A stretch of DNA of 64,000 nucleotides, taken from positions 37,283 to 101,282 of the forward strand of contig DASYUQ010000033.1 in the NCBI GenBank assembly GCA_036001065.1, read 5' to 3'. Of this stretch, positions 38,818 to 57,555 are shown one piece after another. The DNA is from Candidatus Methylomirabilota bacterium (GTDB taxonomy: Bacteria; Methylomirabilota; Methylomirabilia; Rokubacteriales; CSP1-6). The first letter of the stretch is position 1. Every line of letters starts with the position of its first letter. The translations under genes were made by a program, and so were the position numbers. Under the pieces are notes generated by a model. The model did not search any database. It saw nothing but the letters and a program-made list of their open reading frames with translations, and had not been told where the DNA came from.

Positions 38818-39635
38818 GCGACCTCGAGAAGGACATGATGGCGAAGATCGGGAGCGGCATCCGGCTGGAGTCGCCCGACGAAATGACGCCGGAGTATCGC
38901 GAGCACCTCGTGCACCTCATGACGATGCAGGCGGACTCGGAGCTGGCGGGCGGCTACGGCTACGTGCCGTGGATCACCAAGGCCCCGATCGTCGAGGAAA
39001 AGCACGTCGTGGCCCAGATCGTGAAGGACGAGCTCCGCCACGCCACGGTGCTGTACGGGCTGCTGGCCGATCTGGGTGTCGACGTCGAGCACCACGTGAG
39101 CGCCCACGACGAGATCTTCACGATGCGCATCGACCGCGATGCCGACCTCGGCACTAAGCGAATCACGAGTGACAAACGCGTGAACATTTTCTATTACCCA
39201 ATAGAGACATGGGCGGATTTCATATTCTTCAACTTCTGCATGGACCGCGGCGCCGGCCACCAGCTGGAGGACGTGCGCCACTGTTCCTACGGCCCCTGGG
39301 TCCGGGCCATCGAGGGCATCTTCAAGGAAGAGAAGTTCCACATCCGCCACGGCGAGTTCTGGGTGAAGAAGCTCGCGGACGACCCGGCGACGCACGACGA
39401 GGCCCAGGCTACCTTCAACAAGTGGTACATCCGGACGATGAATATCTTCGGGCGGCCGGGCTCGCCGAAGAACCGGCGCTACCGCGAGCTCCGGCTCAAG
39501 GCGCGCGACAACGACCAGGTCCGCCAGGCGTTCGCCACCGAGGTGAAGGCGCTCGGCGAGAAGTTCGGTCTGCAGGTGCCGGAGTGGAAGCCCAGGTGGG
39601 CGGACCTGCCGGAAGAAGCCCACATTCCCGGGTGA
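38814..39635 (+). CDS. PaaA/PaaC-family ferritin-like di-iron oxygenase subunit
   Basis: Two ExxH di-iron motifs (VKDELRH, QLEDVRH). PaaA-like blocks (WITKAP, YYP..TWADFIFF, SYGPW). The start overlaps the paaK stop. Confidence 0.7.
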   Translation: MSDLEKDMMAKIGSGIRLESPDEMTPEYREHLVHLMTMQADSELAGGYGYVPWITKAPIVEEKHVVAQIVKDELRHATVLYGLLADLGVDVEHHVSAHDEIFTMRIDRDADLGTKRITSDKRVNIFYYPIETWADFIFFNFCMDRGAGHQLEDVRHCSYGPWVRAIEGIFKEEKFHIRHGEFWVKKLADDPATHDEAQATFNKWYIRTMNIFGRPGSPKNRRYRELRLKARDNDQVRQAFATEVKALGEKFGLQVPEWKPRWADLPEEAHIPG

Positions 39636-39638
39636 CCC

Positions 39639-40121
39639 ATGACACCTCGTTACGGCGCGCCCGCTCCCGACTTCGCGCTCCCCTCCAGCCAGGGCGGGGA
39701 GGTCACCCTCGGAAGCTTCCGCGGCCAGGCCGACGTCGTGCTGGCCTTTTACTGCTACGACTGGGGCGGGATCTGAACTCCCGAGCTCACCGGCCTGGGC
39801 CAGGCCGCCGACCGCCTGCGTGAACGGGGGGCCGTCCTGCTGGCCATCAGCGGCGACAGTCCCTTCTGCCACACCGCCTTCGCCCAGGCCCGCAAGTTTC
39901 CGTTTCCGCTCCTGAGCGACGTGCACCGGACCGCGATCCGGGCCTACGGAGTGCTCGACGAGGACCGTAACGTGGCCTATCGCTCGACGTTCATCGTGGA
40001 CCGCGACGGGATCCTTCGCTGGGGGCAGGCCGGCGAGCGCCAGATGGTCCGGGAGGGGACCGAGATCCTCCGGGTCCTCGACCTCGTCGCCTCGCTGCGC
40101 CAGTCGGGGTCCAACGCATAG
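39639..40121 (+). CDS. Bcp/PrxQ-type peroxiredoxin with an in-frame UGA (39774-39776) at the peroxidatic-Cys position: candidate selenocysteine-containing peroxiredoxin
   Basis: Read-through translation is MTPRYGAPAPDFALPSSQGGEVTLGSFRGQADVVLAFYCYDWGGI-U-TPELTGLGQAADRLRERGAVLLAISGDSPFCHTAFAQARKFPFPLLSD... It aligns to E. coli Bcp ([33 protein letters not shown]...FTLLSD), so the U falls on Cp. Callers report only the 66-aa tail ORF (39921..40121). Confidence 0.7.
39791..39807 (+). promoter_or_regulatory. SECIS-like hairpin (CGGCCUG-GGC-CAGGCCG) 14 nt downstream of the Prx UGA
   Basis: A perfect 7-bp GC stem with a G-rich 3-nt loop. Spacing and loop G residues are compatible with bacterial SECIS elements. 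Confidence 0.45.
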
Positions 40122-41758: not shown

Positions 41759-42073
41759 TCACTGCGGAATCTCGACGAAGACCACGCCGTTCTCCACGAT
41801 GACCGGGAAGCACGCGACCTTGAGACCGGGATTGTTGGCGTTGGCCCCGGTGGCCACGTCCCAGCGCCAGCCGTGCCACGGGCACGCGACGATGCGGCCT
41901 TCCAGATCGCCCTCACCCAGCGGGCCACCGCGGTGCGCGCACGTGTTGTCGAGGGCGTAGAACCGGCCTTCGATGTTGAACAACGCCAGGGTGTGGCCGC
42001 CCGCCTGGACGACCCGGCCCTCGCCGACGGGCACCTCGCTGACCGCGGCTACTTTCACCCGTGATTGTCCCAC
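41759..42073 (-). CDS. Rieske [2Fe-2S] domain protein (NirD-like small Rieske ferredoxin)
   Basis: CAHRGGPL...CPWHGW Rieske ligands. GTG start with a GGGAGGAGG RBS. Confidence 0.85.
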   Translation of the reverse strand: MGQSRVKVAAVSEVPVGEGRVVQAGGHTLALFNIEGRFYALDNTCAHRGGPLGEGDLEGRIVACPWHGWRWDVATGANANNPGLKVACFPVIVENGVVFVEIPQ

Positions 42074-42129
42074 CGCGTTGCCTCCTCCCTGCCCGGAATG
42101 CCCCTATAATAAGCGCGGAGGGCCCCTCG

Positions 42130-43500
42130 ATGATCTTCCACCAGCTGCAGAACGAGGAGTCGGGGTGCCTGTCGTATCTGATCGGCTGCGGCCAGGCGGG
42201 CGAGGCGGTCGTGGTGGATCCCGGGCGTGATCGGGTGGACGAGTACATCCGGCTGGCGCGGAAGAAGGGGCTGAAGATCACCCGGATCATCGAGACCCAC
42301 ACCCACGCCGATCACATCTCGGGCAACCGCGACCTGGCCGCGCTCACCCAGGCGCCCATCCTCCTCCATCACGCCAGCAAGGCCATCTTCGACCACCTCA
42401 CGGTGAGGGACGGCGACGAGGTCCGGATCGGCACCGTCTCGCTCAAGGTCCTGCACACGCCCGGGCACACGCCCGACAGCCTGTGCCTGCTGGTGACCGA
42501 CCGCGGCCGGGGCAGCGACCCCTGGTTCGTCCTCACCGGCGACACGCTCTTCATCGGCGACGTCGGGCGCCCCGACCTGGGTGGCGAGCAGGCGGCGGCC
42601 GACCTCTACGAGAGCCTGCACACGGCGCTCTGGCCCCTCCGCGACAGCGTCGAGGTGTATCCGGCGCACGGCGCGGGCTCGCTCTGCGGACGCGCGATGT
42701 CCTCCAAGTCGGCCTCGACCATCGGCTTCGAGCGGCGCTTCAACCCGGCGCTGGCGGCCCCGAACAAGGACGAGTTCGTGCAGCTCGTGATGAGCGGCCT
42801 GCCGGCGAAGCCGCCCTCCTTCGAGACCATCGTCGGCAAGAATCAGGGGACCATCCCGCTGGCCAGCGCGAAGCCCCGCCCCTACACCGCGCGCGAGGCG
42901 TGGGAGGCGGTGCAGCACGGCGCCTGCGTCGTCGACCTGCGCGAGCCCTCCACGTACGGCGAGGGCCACGTGCCTGGGGCGATCAACGTCTGGATCGAGA
43001 GCCCGCAGTTCGCCGACCGCGTGAGCTGGTTCGTGCCGGCGGGGGCGCCGCTGATCCTCGTGGCCTCGGGCCCCTCCGACCTCGACCGCGCGCTCGGCGG
43101 ACTGACGCGGGTGGGCGTCGACCAGGTCGCGGGGTTCCTCCAGCGCGGCATGATCGAGTGGCGCAGCGACGAGCTCCCGGTGGAAACCGTCCCCCAGATG
43201 ACGGTGTACGACCTGGCCGAGTGGCTGGAGGAACGGCGCGATGTCGTGGTCGTCGACGTGCGGGAGCCGTTCGAATGGCGCGAGGGCCACATCGACGGCG
43301 CTCTGCACTTGCCCATGCTGGAGGCCGCCCGCCGGCTGGACGAGGTCCCGCCCGACCGTCCCAAAGCCGTCCTCTGCGCGGGGGGCTTGCGCTCCAGCAC
43401 GGTGATCAGCGCGCTGAAGCGTCGGGGAATCGGGAACTGGTATAACGTCGCGGGCGGGATGACGGCGTGGCTGAAGGCGGGCCATCCGGTCAGGCGTTAG
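42130..43500 (+). CDS. MBL-fold persulfide dioxygenase fused to two rhodanese domains (CstB/ETHE1-rhodanese type)
   Basis: HTHADH metal motif. Two rhodanese modules, the second with an active-site CAGGLRS. Perfect TATAAT at 42105-10. Confidence 0.8.
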   Translation: MIFHQLQNEESGCLSYLIGCGQAGEAVVVDPGRDRVDEYIRLARKKGLKITRIIETHTHADHISGNRDLAALTQAPILLHHASKAIFDHLTVRDGDEVRIGTVSLKVLHTPGHTPDSLCLLVTDRGRGSDPWFVLTGDTLFIGDVGRPDLGGEQAAADLYESLHTALWPLRDSVEVYPAHGAGSLCGRAMSSKSASTIGFERRFNPALAAPNKDEFVQLVMSGLPAKPPSFETIVGKNQGTIPLASAKPRPYTAREAWEAVQHGACVVDLREPSTYGEGHVPGAINVWIESPQFADRVSWFVPAGAPLILVASGPSDLDRALGGLTRVGVDQVAGFLQRGMIEWRSDELPVETVPQMTVYDLAEWLEERRDVVVVDVREPFEWREGHIDGALHLPMLEAARRLDEVPPDRPKAVLCAGGLRSSTVISALKRRGIGNWYNVAGGMTAWLKAGHPVRR

Positions 43501-54876: not shown

Positions 54877-55185
54877 TCAATAAAGTGTCTCGGCGGGTGC
54901 CCGCCGGGCGATGTCGGCGGGACGGCTGCCATCCCGCCGGGCTTCGGCCTCGCTGGCGTAGCAGCGCTCGGGACTCGCCTCTTCGTAGAACCGACTCCCG
55001 GGCACGTAATACACGCGTCCCGACTCCTCGGTGACGTAGCCCTTGATGGGATGGGTCGGCGGGCACGCCCAGGGAGTCTCGGCAGCCACGCCGGGTCGCT
55101 CGACCGCGCGCGTCGATGACGGGACCACGGCAGCGTCTGCCGTCCAGACGAGCAGGCGTCGGAGCCGTGCCCGATTGAGGGGCAA
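54877..55185 (-). CDS. Hypothetical small protein with a KGYVTEESGRVYYVPGSRFYEEASPERCYASEAEARRDG module
   Basis: 102 aa ORF. The conserved-looking C-terminal module resembles small secreted-domain repeats. Start uncertain. Confidence 0.3.
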   Translation of the reverse strand: MPLNRARLRRLLVWTADAAVVPSSTRAVERPGVAAETPWACPPTHPIKGYVTEESGRVYYVPGSRFYEEASPERCYASEAEARRDGSRPADIARRAPAETLY

Positions 55186-55246: not shown

Positions 55247-55663
55247 TCAGGTCCCCGCCACCACCTCGATCTTCACCTCGGTCGCGCCCGCGACCGTGCG
55301 GTAGAGGGGTCAACGCGCGCGATACGTCTCGACCAGCGCCTCCGCCTGAGGCTGGCTCACCCCGGCGATCTCGAACCGCATGGTGATGCGGGAGAATCGC
55401 GCGGGCTCGGCGGCGGTGCGGACGCCCTCGATCGTCACCGCCATGCGCGTCACCGGAATGCCGGCCTGCTGAGCGTGCATCTCGATCAGCGTGACGCCGC
55501 ACGACGAGATGCCGGCCAGGAACGCCTCGCTGTTCGTCAGGGCATCGGGCTGGGGACGCGATGACGAGTCCAGGACGAGGCGCTGGCCGCGGACCACGCT
55601 GTGCGCGCGGCCGAGGACGCCGCCGCTCGACGACCGGATCGTCTCGATCTTCGCGTCGCTCAC
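55247..55663 (-). CDS. OsmC/Ohr-family peroxidase with an in-frame UGA (plus 55310-55312) at the C-terminal resolving-Cys position: candidate selenoprotein
   Basis: GTG 55663 (RBS GGGAGG) gives VSDAKIETIRSSSGG...FLAGISSCGVTLIE...QAEALVETYRAR-U-PLYRTVAGATEVKIEVVAGT, ending at TGA 55247-49. The tail matches the OsmC C-terminus (E. coli ...AKAGCPVSQVLKAEITLDY). The ORF track stops at the internal UGA. Confidence 0.65.
55279..55296 (-). promoter_or_regulatory. SECIS-like hairpin (CGGUCGC-GGGC-GCGACCG) 13 nt downstream of the OsmC UGA
   Basis: Perfect 7-8 bp GC stem with a GG-containing loop. Same spacing and architecture as the hairpin after the Prx UGA. Confidence 0.45.
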
Positions 55664-55680
55664 GACGGCCTCCCGCGCGG

Positions 55681-56286
55681 CTACTTCTTGGCCGCCAGAC
55701 CCAGCCGCTGCTCCAGCACCAGGCGCACCTCGCTGGCGGCGGCGCGCCAGAGGGGGCCACCGGGAACGTCGTACTCGGCCTGGACCTGCTTCCGGTACTC
55801 GGCCATCGCGGCGTCCTGCTTGTCCTTCGCCGGTGGAGCCGCATCGACCGTGCGCGCGCGGATCCCGGTGGCCTTGGCCGTCGCCGCGTGGGCCCGCTCG
55901 ATCCAGCGCCCGATCTCGTTCCAGTCTTTGTCGAAGAAGACCACGACCGGGATGGACTGGTAGCCGTTGTTCAGGAAGGTGTCTCGCAGGTCGGGGTTCT
56001 GGTCGCGCAAGAACACGCGCAGGTCGCAGTTCGGCATCGCTTCGCAGATGTGGGCGATCAGCGGCGAGTTGCGGTGGACGTCGCCGCACCAGTTCTCGGC
56101 GAGCATCAGCGCGTTCCGCACCTGGCTGATCCCGCTGAAGAATTCCCGCTCTTCCTCGGTCAGGCCCGACTTCTGGTAGTTGTGCTCGGTCCGGGCCTGG
56201 GTGTCGCCCATCTGGGCGAGATAGTCCTTCCAGGTCAGGCCTTTGGCGAAGCGCTGCGCGTCCAGGGGAATCCTCAGCTGGGCCAT
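55681..56286 (-). CDS. Thioredoxin-fold protein with monothiol WCGDVH motif, 17 nt upstream of and co-oriented with the OsmC(Sec) gene
   Basis: AENWCGDVHRNSP replaces the canonical WCGPC, and the thioredoxin-like beta-alpha-beta core continues (IPVVVFFDKDWNEIGRWI). 201 aa. Confidence 0.6.
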   Translation of the reverse strand: MAQLRIPLDAQRFAKGLTWKDYLAQMGDTQARTEHNYQKSGLTEEEREFFSGISQVRNALMLAENWCGDVHRNSPLIAHICEAMPNCDLRVFLRDQNPDLRDTFLNNGYQSIPVVVFFDKDWNEIGRWIERAHAATAKATGIRARTVDAAPPAKDKQDAAMAEYRKQVQAEYDVPGGPLWRAAASEVRLVLEQRLGLAAKK

Positions 56287-56386: not shown

Positions 56387-57555
56387 TGGACGAGCGGAGG
56401 GAGCGGGACCAGATCCTCACGCGGCGGCAGTTCCTATCGACGGCGGCCGCGGCGACGGCGGCCCTGGCGGGGAGCGGGCCGGCGCTGGCCCAGGCGCCGT
56501 CGCAACCCACCCGTGTCCACGCCAAGCCGGCGCCGGCCGAGATCTTCATCGACCACGGCATCAACCAGGAGACCCGGCTGGAAACACTCCGCGGCTACCT
56601 GACCCCCGGCAGCCACTTCTTCATTCGCAACCATGCGACCACCCCCGCTCTCGACCTCCGCACGTGGCGACTGCGCGTCGAGGGAAACGCGGTCGAGCAG
56701 CCGCTCGAGCTGACCTTCGAGGACCTGCTGCGTCTGCCCTCGCGCTCGGTCATCTGCTTCGTGGAGTGCGCCGGCAACGGCCGGGGCTTCTTCAAGGAGT
56801 TCATGGGGCGCGTCGCCTCGGGGACCCAGTGGCGCCTGGGCGCCATCGGTGTCGCCGAGTGGAGCGGCGTTCCGCTGGCCGCGGTGCTCGACCTGGCCAG
56901 GGTGAAGCGCGACACGCCGCGCGACGTGCTCAACGTGCTCATCGAAGGCCTCGACTCGGTCAAGGTGAACCGGCCGATCAGCCTCGAAAAGGCCCGGGAG
57001 GATGGGACCCTGCTGGCGTACGCGATGAACGGGCAGCCCTTGTTGCCGGACCACGGCTTTCCGGTACGGGCCGTCGTCCCCGGCTGGGTCGGGATCAACA
57101 ACATCAAGTGGGTGGGGCGGATCGAGGTGCGCGACGGCAGCATCGACGTGCCGACCACCACGACGACGTACGTGCTGGAGGGGCCCGATCACCCGACGAA
57201 GGTGCCCCTCCGGCTCCAGACGCTCAAGAGTGCCGTCGCGCTGCCGTGGGGGGCGACGTTTCCGGCCGGTCGGCACACGGTGAGCGGCTTCGCCTGGTCG
57301 CCGGTCGGCCGCATCAGCCGCGTCGACTACAGCCTGGACCGCGGGGCCACCTGGCGGCCGGCCAACCTGCGCGAGCCGAACCTCCCCAGGGCCTGGGCGC
57401 GCTGGGACTTCGAGTGGGACGCCCGACCCGGCGAGCACGTGATCCTGACGAGGGCCACCGACGGCCAGGGGAACACCCAGCCGACGAGCATCCCGTGGAA
57501 CCGCCAGGGCTACGGCTACAACGTGCCGGTGCCCCACCCGGTGAAGATTACCTAA
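56387..57555 (+). CDS. Sulfite-oxidase-family molybdopterin oxidoreductase with Tat signal
   Basis: RRQFLSTAAAATAALAGSGPALA twin-arginine signal. Moco-binding Cys motif ICFVECAGNGR. A C-terminal Ig-like dimerisation domain. TACAAT lies 9 nt before the ATG. Confidence 0.85.

What the first reader, a model, noticed from the sequence alone, without database searches (positions are those of the whole stretch)
55247..55663. Candidate selenoprotein of the OsmC/Ohr family with Sec at the C-terminal (resolving) cysteine position
The minus-strand OsmC-like gene (GTG 55663, GGGAGG RBS) is annotated as ending at TGA 55310-12 (…ALVETYRAR). The 20 in-frame codons after that TGA read PLYRTVAGATEVKIEVVAGT before a second TGA (55247-49). 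Together this reproduces the conserved OsmC C-terminus (E. coli …AGCPVSQVLKAEITLDY), with U where the second conserved Cys (C-P) belongs. The first conserved Cys (GISSCGVTLIE, versus AACFSMALSL) is retained. A 7-8 bp perfect GC hairpin with a GG loop begins 13 nt after the UGA. Spacing and architecture match the hairpin after the Prx UGA, which lies 16 kb away. A truncated OsmC without its last strand and second Cys would be non-functional, which argues for read-through. Sec at the resolving rather than the peroxidatic position would be unusual for a peroxidase.
Basis: partly seen in the sequence, partly recalled or inferred. Interest (0 to 1): 0.85.

Follow-up and report, generated by a model that had tools for sequence, protein, structure and literature searches.

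The report
OsmC-type selenoprotein, selenocysteine at second cysteine
This small antioxidant-type gene does not end at its apparent stop codon: the TGA almost certainly encodes selenocysteine at the second of two catalytic cysteine positions, the opposite position from the known OsmC-like selenoproteins, and the gene is annotated as truncated in the public records seen here.

Summary
The minus-strand OsmC-family gene (GTG 55663) has an in-frame TGA at 55312-55310, 20 more codons, and a true stop at 55249-55247. All 40 independent orthologues examined (35-96% protein identity, mostly Rokubacteria/Methylomirabilota) keep TGA at this codon, followed by a conserved tail (PLYRTVAxAT...) that completes the OsmC domain. 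A 7-bp hairpin 13 nt after the TGA is nearly invariant, including its four-fold-degenerate codon positions. It shows compensatory changes and meets all four published bacterial SECIS criteria. True Cys-form homologues have TGC and no hairpin, although they encode almost the same peptide. The codon aligns with the second (resolving) Cys of Ohr/OsmC, and the first Cys is invariant. The known OsmC-like selenoprotein family (NCBIfam NF041052, motif UxxT) has the opposite arrangement, with Sec at the first Cys, and this protein is not a member (22 bits against a cut-off of 95). It is therefore a new variant of a known kind. No Sec machinery lies in the sequence available. A second TGA-interrupted gene (a peroxiredoxin) in the window and literature on the phylum support Sec use. 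Whether the Sec resolves or attacks peroxide is inferred, not shown.

The parts
55669..55674 (-). Shine-Dalgarno-like GGGAGG, 5 nt upstream of the GTG start
   Evidence: Read directly from the sequence. The start is supported by homologues that begin MSDxKIETIRSS.
55313..55663 (-). First 117 codons of the OsmC-family gene (GTG start to ...YRAR), the part that databases call as the whole gene
   Evidence: Pfam OsmC 37.4 bits, profile positions 4-80 of 100 only. Nearly all close homologues are annotated at 117 aa.
55499..55501 (-). TGC codon of Cys55, the first conserved cysteine (peroxidatic position in Ohr/OsmC)
   Evidence: Invariant in 39/39 family members. Aligns with Ohr Cys60/61. Aligns with the Sec of the Sargasso OsmC-like selenoprotein.
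55310..55312 (-). In-frame TGA, proposed selenocysteine codon (residue 118), at the second conserved cysteine position
   Evidence: TGA in 40/40 orthologues. Cys in 27 of 28 full-length family members in A2. TGC in L039, L040 and L045. Aligns with Ohr Cys124/125 in the vCPYs motif.
55279..55296 (-). Bacterial SECIS-type hairpin: 7-bp stem (55296-55290 with 55285-55279) and GGGC loop (55289-55286) whose outer G:C pair covaries. It overlaps codons T-V-A-G-A-T.
   Evidence: 99.1% of cells paired in 40 sequences, compensatory changes at two pairs, covariation score 0.090 against 0.032 in shuffles (0/500). Synonymous sites are frozen. Consensus energy -13.0 kcal/mol. Meets all four bSECIS criteria of PMC13188914. 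Absent from true Cys forms.
55250..55309 (-). 20-codon read-through tail PLYRTVAGATEVKIEVVAGT, the last helix and terminal beta-strand of the OsmC fold
   Evidence: Conserved in all orthologues, with variation concentrated at third codon positions, and conservation collapses after the true stop. Completes the Pfam profile. In the AlphaFold model of the Cys form the region is helix 119-127 plus strand 129-137 at pLDDT of about 98.
55247..55249 (-). True stop codon (TGA) of the 138-residue product
   Evidence: Orthologues stop 19-26 codons after the Sec codon with TGA, TAG or TAA, and no conservation follows.

Best explanation
The gene encodes a 138-residue OsmC-superfamily selenoprotein. During translation the UGA at 55312-55310 is not read as stop. 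The conserved hairpin, which starts 13 nt after the UGA with its loop 20 nt after it, acts as a bacterial SECIS element that recruits SelB carrying Sec-tRNA(Sec), so selenocysteine is inserted as residue 118. Translation then continues for 20 codons, which form the last helix and beta-strand of the fold. The mature protein carries the invariant Cys55 and Sec118 side by side at the two catalytic positions of Ohr/OsmC hydroperoxide reductases. The most likely chemistry is this: Cys55 attacks a hydroperoxide to give a sulfenic acid; the Sec118 selenolate resolves it to an intramolecular selenenylsulfide; a thiol reductant then reduces that bond. Shown here: the recoding signature (conserved TGA, coding tail, SECIS hairpin tied to TGA, Cys homologues) and the homology of the two positions. 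Inferred: actual Se insertion, peroxidase activity, and which of the two residues attacks first. I put the selenoprotein reading at about 0.9. Given that, I put the 'Sec resolves' assignment at about 0.5, against about 0.35 for a role swap.
For: - TGA is conserved at the same codon in 34/34 GTDB species representatives and in 6 more metagenomic orthologues down to about 35% identity.
- The downstream tail is conserved as protein, with third-position variation, and then collapses after the real stop.
- Pfam OsmC rises from 37.4 to 56 bits and becomes full length.
- The AlphaFold model of the Cys form P0012 has pLDDT 96.3, with the tail as helix plus terminal strand. Its fold matches OsmC-family structures at TM 0.82-0.85.
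- Hairpin: 7-bp stem, 99.1% paired, compensatory changes at two pairs including C:G to U:A in L043, and covariation above all shuffles.
- Four-fold-degenerate sites in the hairpin are frozen, at 0-0.39 bits against a gene mean of 1.12.
- All four published bSECIS criteria are met.
- The hairpin is tied to TGA. True Cys forms (L039, L040, L045) have TGC and non-complementary codons while encoding T-L-A-G-A-T.
- TGA is an ordinary stop for many genes in the window. A scan found coding-like sequence on both sides of an in-frame TGA only here and at the peroxiredoxin gene.
- The peroxiredoxin has its TGA at the peroxidatic Cys position.
- Methylomirabilota are reported as Sec users, with the largest predicted bacterial selenoproteome (PMC13188914) and Sec-type hydrogenases (PMC13582414).
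- U118 aligns with the Ohr second Cys and C55 with the first, and Glu45 lies 10 residues before C55, at the position of Ohr's PEQLF glutamate.
Against: - No selA, selB, selD or tRNA-Sec was found in the window or in 45 related loci, 402 kb in all, so the machinery is unverified for this genome.
- There is no experimental evidence of Se incorporation.
- The stem is almost invariant, so most support for the structure comes from suppressed synonymous variation rather than abundant covariation. Compensatory changes occur at only two pairs.
- Two close relatives carry a non-TGA codon with the hairpin intact: TGC in L035, which is a gene remnant, and CGA in L036. Hairpin and TGA are therefore not perfectly coupled over short evolutionary distances.
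- On the chemistry: the Arg of the family's conserved GR motif aligns three residues after the Arg of the GGRDG motif in the Ohr-type chain 4mh4. From memory, that GGRDG Arg is the catalytic one.
- The nearest structures are the poorly characterised MPN625/YhfA group, so transferring the 'peroxidatic' and 'resolving' labels is uncertain.
Confidence: 0.85

Rival explanations
1. Role swap: the protein is a selenoprotein as above, but Sec118 is the primary nucleophile that attacks the peroxide or other oxidant (forming a selenenic acid), and Cys55 resolves it. Under this reading the 'resolving' label from Ohr/OsmC does not apply to this subfamily.
For: In catalogued peroxidase-type selenoproteins, Sec replaces the attacking residue, as in Prx TxxU and the known OsmC-like UxxT. 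The family is not Ohr or OsmC proper: TIGR03561 scores 28 bits against a cut-off of 89. Its nearest structures are MPN625, AQ1549 and YhfA, whose catalytic cycle is, to my knowledge, not characterised. One cluster representative (P0163) has Ser at the first Cys and keeps the second Cys. The conserved GR motif does not align with the GGRDG Arg of the Ohr-type chain 4mh4.
Against: Cys55 is invariant in 39/39 members, and Glu45 occupies the position of Ohr's activating Glu relative to it. From established Ohr/OsmC structures (my own knowledge), the second Cys is the more buried of the two. P0163 is a single unverified sequence.
Confidence: 0.3
2. The UGA is read through or recoded without selenium. 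Either a near-cognate tRNA (Trp, Cys or Arg) is stimulated by the downstream hairpin, or the lineage reads UGA as a sense codon.
For: Sec machinery is not demonstrated for this genome. JGI gene callers translated the codon as W. Stable hairpins downstream of stop codons can stimulate read-through (general knowledge).
Against: TGA ends many ordinary genes in the window, for example the RND pump, the membrane-fusion protein and the PaaK-like ligase. In-frame TGAs with coding sequence on both sides occur only at two catalytic-Cys positions. The position is a redox-active Cys column with Cys in non-TGA homologues, which is the signature of Sec and not of Trp or Arg. Loop sequence, stem length and spacing fit the SelB-type bSECIS model. 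The phylum is documented as Sec-using (PMC13188914, PMC13582414).
Confidence: 0.05
3. The TGA is a genuine stop. The gene encodes a 117-residue truncated OsmC-like protein (as annotated), or it is a pseudogene or sequencing error.
For: Database annotations in this family mostly end at 117 aa. The truncated product still passes the Pfam threshold, at 37.4 bits against 27.5.
Against: 40 independent assemblies share the TGA, so it is not an error. The 20 codons after it are conserved as protein in all of them, and conservation stops at the next stop codon. The truncated protein lacks the second catalytic residue, a helix and the terminal strand that are modelled at pLDDT of about 98. Frozen synonymous sites downstream of a real stop would have no explanation.
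Confidence: 0.02

Closest known systems
OsmC-related (seleno)protein, NCBIfam NF041052 (the 'OsmC-like protein' selenoprotein family of Zhang, Fomenko and Gladyshev 2005, motif UxxT; e.g. Sargasso Sea AACY01145085)
   Same: Same Pfam superfamily (PF02566). Both are selenoproteins with one Sec and one Cys at the two conserved cysteine columns, with a bSECIS directly after the UGA. In both, Cys homologues outnumber or equal the Sec forms.
   Different: The arrangement is reversed. The known family has Sec at the first column (AGIGFuLLTQ) and Cys at the second (AKQGCFAEN). Here Cys is first (SSCGVT) and Sec second (RuPLYRT), and a profile alignment confirms the columns correspond. The window protein scores 22.3 bits against a cut-off of 95 on NF041052, while the Sargasso protein scores 157. 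Its motif is UxxY rather than UxxT. The known family comes from marine plankton and symbionts, whereas this one is mainly in Rokubacteria/Methylomirabilota MAGs.
Ohr / OsmC two-cysteine organic hydroperoxide reductases (TIGR03561; PDB 1n2f, 6mjn, 4xx2, 1nye)
   Same: Same fold (TM 0.6-0.75). Both catalytic cysteine columns are present. The Glu 10 residues before the first Cys and the C-P motif at the second are conserved. This is the best sequence-level match in the PDB.
   Different: Below the family cut-off, at 28.3 against 88.85 bits. The second Cys is replaced by Sec. The Arg of the GGRDG motif is not aligned with this family's conserved GR. The physiological reductant is unknown.
MPN625 / AQ1549 / Ta0195 / YhfA-type OsmC-like proteins (PDB 1lql, 2egt, 2onf, 1ml8)
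   Same: These are the closest structural neighbours of the modelled Cys form, at TM 0.80-0.85 and rmsd 1.7-2.8 A. They are single-domain proteins of similar size with two cysteines.
   Different: Only 14-19% sequence identity. None is a selenoprotein. To my knowledge their functions are largely uncharacterised.
Bacterial SECIS consensus (bSECISearch model; E. coli fdhF-type hairpin)
   Same: The hairpin lies inside the coding region just after the UGA. It has a 7-bp upper stem and a small apical loop with G in its first two positions, closed by a base pair. The UGA-to-loop spacing is 20 nt and the energy is -13 kcal/mol, so it meets all four published criteria. From memory, the fdhF loop GGUC is similar to the GGNC loop here.
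   Different: The loop is one nucleotide shorter than the most common N1-G-[G/U]-N-N2 pattern. No bulged U is evident. Binding by SelB is untested.
Selenocysteine peroxiredoxins (PrxU, motif TxxU)
   Same: They are thiol/selenol peroxidases with Sec encoded by UGA plus a bSECIS. A related candidate lies in the same window (39639-40121).
   Different: Unrelated thioredoxin fold. Sec is at the peroxidatic position.

Membership tests
Bacterial selenoprotein gene (Sec-UGA plus bSECIS) | In-frame UGA conserved among orthologues | tested here: met
   TGA at the same codon in 34/34 genome loci and in L037, L038, L041, L042, L043 and L044.
Bacterial selenoprotein gene (Sec-UGA plus bSECIS) | Homologues with Cys aligned to the UGA | tested here: met
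   27 of 28 full-length members in alignment A2 have Cys at the column. TGC is confirmed in the DNA of L039, L040 and L045. Of the 150 best 50%-identity cluster representatives, 73 read through the column and 52 end at it.
Bacterial selenoprotein gene (Sec-UGA plus bSECIS) | Protein-coding conservation continues downstream of the UGA to a later stop | tested here: met
   The tail PLYRTVAxATxVK is conserved with third-position variation, and conservation collapses after the true stop. The Pfam profile is completed. The region is modelled as helix plus strand at high confidence.
Bacterial selenoprotein gene (Sec-UGA plus bSECIS) | bSECIS model: 3-9 nt apical loop, 4-16 bp upper stem, G in the first two loop positions, 16-37 nt from UGA to loop, MFE of -7.5 kcal/mol or lower (PMC13188914 Fig. 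2A) | tested here: met
   4-nt loop GGNC, 7-bp stem, loop begins 20 nt after the UGA, consensus energy -13.03 kcal/mol. Conservation and covariation.
Bacterial selenoprotein gene (Sec-UGA plus bSECIS) | selA, selB, selD and tRNA-Sec present in the same genome | not testable with these tools
   None found in the 64-kb window or in 45 related loci: ARAGORN, Rfam, and tblastn with E. coli SelA/SelB/SelD over 402 kb. The rest of the genome is not available. Indirect support comes from a second TGA-interrupted redox gene in the window and from literature on the phylum.
Bacterial selenoprotein gene (Sec-UGA plus bSECIS) | Selenium actually incorporated at the UGA | not testable with these tools
   This needs 75Se labelling or mass spectrometry.
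OsmC/Ohr superfamily (Pfam PF02566) | Profile match above the gathering threshold, and the OsmC fold | tested here: met
   56 bits against 27.5, profile positions 4-100 of 100. Foldseek TM 0.84 to 1lql and probability 1.00 to many OsmC/Ohr structures.
OsmC/Ohr superfamily (Pfam PF02566) | Two conserved catalytic cysteine positions | tested here: met
   Cys55 is invariant. The second column is Sec or Cys followed by Pro.
Ohr subfamily (NCBIfam TIGR03561) | Score above the curated cut-off | tested here: not met
   28.3 bits against 88.85. P0012 scores 24.1 bits.
Known OsmC-like selenoprotein family (NCBIfam NF041052, motif UxxT) | Score above the curated cut-off | tested here: not met
   22.3 bits against 95 for the window protein, and 17.1 and 18.5 bits for the Cys forms P0012 and P0135. 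The Sargasso reference scores 157.4.
Known OsmC-like selenoprotein family (NCBIfam NF041052, motif UxxT) | Sec at the first conserved Cys column (UxxT) | tested here: not met
   Here the first column is Cys (C-G-V-T) and Sec is at the second column (U-P-L-Y). Column correspondence was checked by hhalign.

The most novel reading that the evidence does not exclude
This is a natural peroxidase in which selenocysteine serves as the resolving residue rather than the peroxide-attacking one. Cys55 forms the sulfenic acid and the Sec118 selenolate captures it as a selenenylsulfide. That would show that selection for Sec can act on the resolution and re-reduction half of the catalytic cycle (speed of resolution, protection from over-oxidation, ease of reducing S-Se) and not only on peroxide attack. 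The mirror-image NF041052 family, with Sec at the first Cys, would serve as a built-in natural comparison within one fold.
Probability: 0.4. Interest if true: 0.72.

Novelty: new variant of a known kind. Interest (0 to 1): 0.58.

Why it matters
1. **Annotation.** Every close homologue named in the protein search is called as a 117-residue 'OsmC family protein' or 'hypothetical protein'. About a third of the 150 best 50%-identity cluster representatives end at the Sec column, and some callers print W there. A dedicated profile would correct a whole clade of records in abundant soil bacteria and add a family to selenoproteome counts.

2. **Biochemistry.** Two OsmC-fold families now carry Sec at opposite members of the same catalytic pair. 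This natural reciprocal experiment bears on the old question of why cells pay for Sec instead of Cys: nucleophilicity in peroxide attack, or better behaviour as a resolving or leaving group and resistance to irreversible oxidation. The proteins are small and soluble, and Cys forms are available, so the question can be tested directly.

3. **RNA-protein overlap.** The SECIS fixes the peptide T-V-A-x-A-T in the Sec forms, while the Cys forms vary there. This is a clean example of an RNA element constraining protein sequence.

Tried and rejected
1. I guessed that the genes at 42.0-46.5 kb (479, 630 and 337 aa) were selA, selB and selD because of their sizes. NCBIfam shows an MBL-fold/rhodanese fusion, PilB and a cupin dioxygenase.
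2. A second apparent in-frame TGA at 41759-41761 (minus strand) is an ordinary stop of a Rieske-type protein.
3. The 94-nt 'tRNA-Thr' in L031 was suspected to be a tRNA-Sec. It has no Rfam match at E of 0.01 or lower.
4. A search with only the C-terminal 49 residues, meant to enrich full-length forms, returned just two fragments. The exhaustive representative search was used instead.
5. I considered a conserved operon with the upstream Thioredoxin_9 gene as the reductant partner. Adjacency is kept only in the nearest relative L001, so it is not a defining part.
6. The apparent 'Trp form' P0121 is really TGA in the DNA. The close 'Cys form' P0122 lies in what looks like a gene remnant, and the 'Arg form' P0003 is a single 1-kb contig. 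None is good evidence about Sec loss.
7. The long lower stem of the single-sequence MFE fold is not conserved and was dropped.
8. The window's own 117-aa product is not on record in the assembly index, so its source contig could not be extended.
9. tblastn with E. coli SelA, SelB and SelD found nothing in 402 kb.
10. Deng et al. 2026 (the Methylomirabilota MAG with 63 predicted selenoproteins) is not held in the library, so I could not check whether its list already includes this form.
Full report
**1. The observation**

On the minus strand a GGGAGG (55674-55669) precedes a GTG at 55663. The frame runs for 117 codons (...GVSQPQAEALVETYRAR) to TGA at 55312-55310. It continues in frame for 20 codons (PLYRTVAGATEVKIEVVAGT) to a second TGA at 55249-55247.

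The hairpin is present as described. C17-G34 through C23-G28 (numbering from the T of TGA) form the stem, and G24-G25-G26-C27 form the loop. This occupies 55296-55279 and starts 13 nt after the UGA.

**2. The tail is coding**

- The truncated product matches Pfam OsmC (PF02566) at 37.4 bits over profile positions 4-80 of 100. With the tail (U written as C) the match is 56 bits over positions 4-100.
- In a search of 5.8 billion proteins, almost all of the best 120 hits (73-96% identical) are annotated at exactly 117 residues, the same truncation point.
- I fetched DNA for 34 species-level genome representatives, nearly all Rokubacteria/Methylomirabilota MAGs at 51-95% identity. All 34 have TGA at this codon, followed by PLYRTVAxATxVK... 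and a real stop 19-26 codons later. Similarity vanishes after that stop.
- In the tail, variation is concentrated at third codon positions.
- AlphaFold2 on the Cys-form homologue P0012 (70% identical), with a 39-sequence family alignment, gives mean pLDDT 96.3. The residues after the Sec/Cys position form helix 119-127 and terminal strand 129-137 at pLDDT of about 98.
- The model matches OsmC-family crystal structures: 1lql at TM 0.84, 2egt at 0.85, 1ml8 at 0.82, then Ohr and OsmC.
- A 117-residue product would lack a catalytic residue, a helix and an edge strand.

**3. The hairpin is a conserved RNA element tied to the TGA**

The loci were selected by homology to the first 117 residues only, so conservation downstream is an independent observation.

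- In 34 sequences the 7-bp stem is essentially invariant, and RNAalifold recovers only this apical hairpin, at -13.0 kcal/mol.
- The invariance is not codon bias. Among 57 conserved four-fold-degenerate codons of the gene, third-position entropy averages 1.12 bits outside the hairpin, with one invariant site out of 52. It is 0, 0, 0.39, 0, 0 bits for the five hairpin codons.
- The loop-closing pair covaries (G:C, A:U, C:G, G:U). The middle codon is always GNC, although the amino acid varies (Gly, Ala, Val, Asp).
- I then obtained DNA for five much more divergent truncated representatives (35-53% identity): L038, L041, L042, L043 and L044. All end in TGA, continue P-L-(Y/W)-R-x-V-A-V-A-T, and keep the hairpin at the same distance. 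L043 has a compensatory C:G to U:A change inside the stem.
- Over 40 sequences, 99.1% of cells are paired, two pairs show changes on both sides (7 cells), and the covariation score is 0.090 against 0.032 for shuffles (0 of 500 reach it). Slid registers pair at only 13-50%.
- In contrast, the true Cys forms have TGC and no hairpin. L039/L040 (P0135) is the closest Cys relative of the Sec form P0145. It encodes T-L-A-G-A-T with ACG CTT GCG GGC GCC ACA, which cannot pair. L045 (P0125) has diverged in the peptide as well.
- At the protein level this segment is fixed as TVAxAT in Sec forms and is variable in Cys forms. This indicates that the RNA constrains the peptide.

**4. Fit to the bacterial SECIS definition**

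The published consensus model (PMC13188914, section 5 and Fig. 2A) has four requirements:

| Criterion | Required | Observed here |
|---|---|---|
| Apical loop | 3-9 nt | 4 nt (GGNC, with a covarying closing pair) |
| Upper stem | 4-16 bp | 7 bp |
| G in loop | within the first two positions | present |
| UGA-to-loop spacing | 16-37 nt | 20 nt |
| MFE | -7.5 kcal/mol or lower | -13.0 kcal/mol |

All four are met. From memory, the E. coli fdhF SECIS loop (GGUC) is similar. I did not test that here.

**5. Which residue is replaced**

HMMER alignments to solved Ohr/OsmC structures (6mjn, 4mh4, 1lql, 6ecy) place the TGA on the second conserved Cys (vCPYs motif) and Cys55 on the first (aaCF motif). 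Glu45 lies 10 residues before Cys55, aligned with the PEQLF glutamate of Ohr.

In a 39-member family alignment:
- Cys55 is invariant.
- 27 of 28 full-length members have Cys-Pro at the second column.
- All 11 truncated members end one residue before that column.

An exhaustive HMMER search of 1.84 billion cluster representatives finds a modest family of 223 clusters at E of 0.001 or lower. Of the 150 best, 52 end at the Sec column and 73 read through it. All five of the 52 that I sampled were TGA plus hairpin.

**6. Comparison with what is known**

OsmC-like selenoproteins have been known since 2005, with motif UxxT: 3 sequences in the Sargasso Sea, 5 in GOS and 3 in the Olavius symbiont data. 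A 2026 catalogue still lists a single OsmC-like form, UxxT.

- The deposited Sargasso sequence AACY01145085 reads ...AGIGFuLLTQ...AKQGCFAEN.... It has Sec at the first Cys column and Cys at the second.
- It is a bona fide member of NCBIfam NF041052 'OsmC-related (seleno)protein', at 157 bits against a cut-off of 95.
- The window protein and its Cys-form relatives score 17-22 bits on that model.
- A profile alignment shows that the Sargasso Sec aligns with this family's invariant Cys55, and the Sargasso Cys111 aligns with this family's Sec column.
- The window protein is also below the Ohr cut-off, at 28.3 against 88.85 bits.

It therefore works like a two-residue OsmC/Ohr-type redox protein and is a selenoprotein of the OsmC superfamily. 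It is not a member of the known OsmC-like selenoprotein family or of Ohr, and it carries Sec at the other catalytic position.

I found no description of this form in the searchable literature. I could not read Deng et al. 2026, which predicted 63 selenoproteins in a Methylomirabilota MAG, so a prior listing cannot be excluded.

**7. Does this organism use Sec?**

- The window has no tRNA gene and no Rfam match. tblastn with E. coli SelA, SelB and SelD finds nothing in the window or in 45 loci, 402 kb in all. This key check remains open.
- TGA terminates many ordinary genes in the window, so the code is standard.
- A scan for TGA codons with coding-like sequence on both sides finds three: this one, an ordinary stop at 39633-39635 that is followed in frame by the peroxiredoxin start, and one inside that peroxiredoxin gene (39639-40121, TGA at 39774-39776...YDWGGIuTPEL...). 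That last TGA is at the peroxidatic Cys position and has a GC hairpin 15 nt downstream.
- With read-through, the peroxiredoxin matches AhpC-TSA over profile positions 2-123 of 124. Its close homologues are mostly called as C-terminal fragments, or with 'W' at the site. In the OsmC case, that 'W' proved to be TGA in the DNA.
- Methylomirabilota are reported to include the largest predicted bacterial selenoproteome (PMC13188914) and Sec-type hydrogenases (PMC13582414).

**8. Mechanism**

*Shown:* the recoding signature and the homology of the two positions.

*Inferred:* SelB bound to Sec-tRNA(Sec) recognises the hairpin as the ribosome reaches the UGA, Sec118 is inserted, and the 138-residue protein folds as an OsmC-type protein with Cys55 and Sec118 adjacent.

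I commit to a hydroperoxide-reductase cycle in which Cys55 is oxidised to a sulfenic acid, the Sec118 selenolate resolves it to a selenenylsulfide, and a thiol reductant regenerates the enzyme. The reasons are that Cys55 and Glu45 are retained in the Ohr positions, and that the second Cys is the more buried of the two in Ohr/OsmC structures. That second point is from my own knowledge and was not tested here.

The alternative is that Sec118 is the attacking residue and Cys55 resolves. It is a serious rival for three reasons. Sec usually occupies the attacking position in peroxidase selenoproteins. The family is not Ohr proper. The Arg of the conserved GR motif aligns three residues after the GGRDG Arg of the Ohr-type chain 4mh4. 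I could not obtain model coordinates to measure distances.

**9. Context**

The gene is preceded by a Thioredoxin_9 gene (PF14595, one-Cys WCGDV motif) whose stop lies 17 nt upstream. It is followed by a small unassigned ORF, a MarR-family regulator and an RND efflux operon. The thioredoxin adjacency is kept only in the nearest relative L001, and other loci have different neighbours. The gene therefore behaves as a stand-alone unit.

**10. Verdict**

This is a robustly predicted selenoprotein gene that is annotated as truncated in the records seen here. It defines a second, mirror-image form of OsmC-fold selenoprotein, so it is a new variant of a known kind rather than something categorically new. 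Interest is moderate to high for selenium biochemistry and for annotation. The main gaps are the unverified Sec machinery in this genome and the absence of any experimental test of Se insertion or of the roles of the two residues.

Noticed in passing
window 39639-40121 (+), TGA at 39774-39776: A second candidate selenoprotein. It is an AhpC/TSA peroxiredoxin with an in-frame TGA at the peroxidatic Cys position (...AFYCYDWGGIuTPELTGL...). Read-through gives a full-length Pfam AhpC-TSA match (positions 2-123 of 124), and the best NCBIfam hit is PrxU, below its cut-off. A GGCCUG-GGC-CAGGCC hairpin lies 15 nt after the UGA, but the fold z-score is not significant. Most close homologues are called as 90-108 aa C-terminal fragments, and JGI full-length calls print W at the site.
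   Followed up: partly
window 55681-56286 (-): A Thioredoxin_9 family gene (PF14595, 108 bits) with a one-cysteine active-site motif WCGDV. It ends 17 nt before the OsmC start, so it is probably co-transcribed. The adjacency is conserved only in L001, and the gene is 5 kb away in L034. It is a possible reductant partner but not a fixed one.
   Followed up: partly
L037 1-138 (protein P0121); also P0187 and P0273-P0282: Some JGI gene calls translate the Sec-TGA as tryptophan. For P0121 the DNA is TGA. 'W' at a catalytic Cys column in metagenome protein sets can therefore hide a Sec codon.
   Followed up: partly
L036 384-833 (protein P0003): A close relative (80% identity) has CGA (Arg) instead of TGA, with the hairpin still intact, and a Tyr-to-Cys change four codons upstream (ETCRTRRPLY). 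This could be a genuine recent Sec loss with a nearby replacement Cys, or an assembly error on a 1-kb contig. It is unresolved.
   Followed up: no
L035 167-346 (protein P0122): TGC (Cys) with an intact hairpin, in what looks like a C-terminal remnant of the gene. The sequence upstream of AGVSQ is unrelated to OsmC.
   Followed up: no
L031 4579-4672: ARAGORN calls a 94-nt 'tRNA-Thr (cgt)', which is unusually long. No Rfam family matches at E of 0.01 or lower.
   Followed up: partly
proteins P0126, P0180, P0185, P0190, P0197, P0226 (500-714 aa): Long proteins with two to four OsmC-like stretches appear among the family's distant relatives. These are multi-domain fusions of unknown function.
   Followed up: no
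window 42061-43497 (+) and about 56389-57555 (+): A metallo-beta-lactamase-fold / C-terminal rhodanese fusion (persulfide-dioxygenase-like). A sulfite-oxidase-type molybdoenzyme (Oxidored_molyb plus Mo-co_dimer) with a twin-arginine-like signal lies divergently next to the thioredoxin/OsmC pair. Together they suggest a sulfur-oxidation and redox-stress neighbourhood.
   Followed up: no
window 54877-55185 (-): A 102-aa ORF between the OsmC stop and the MarR gene (motif ...HPIKGYVTEESGRVYYVPGSRFYEE...) has no Pfam match. Whether it is a real gene is unknown.
   Followed up: no
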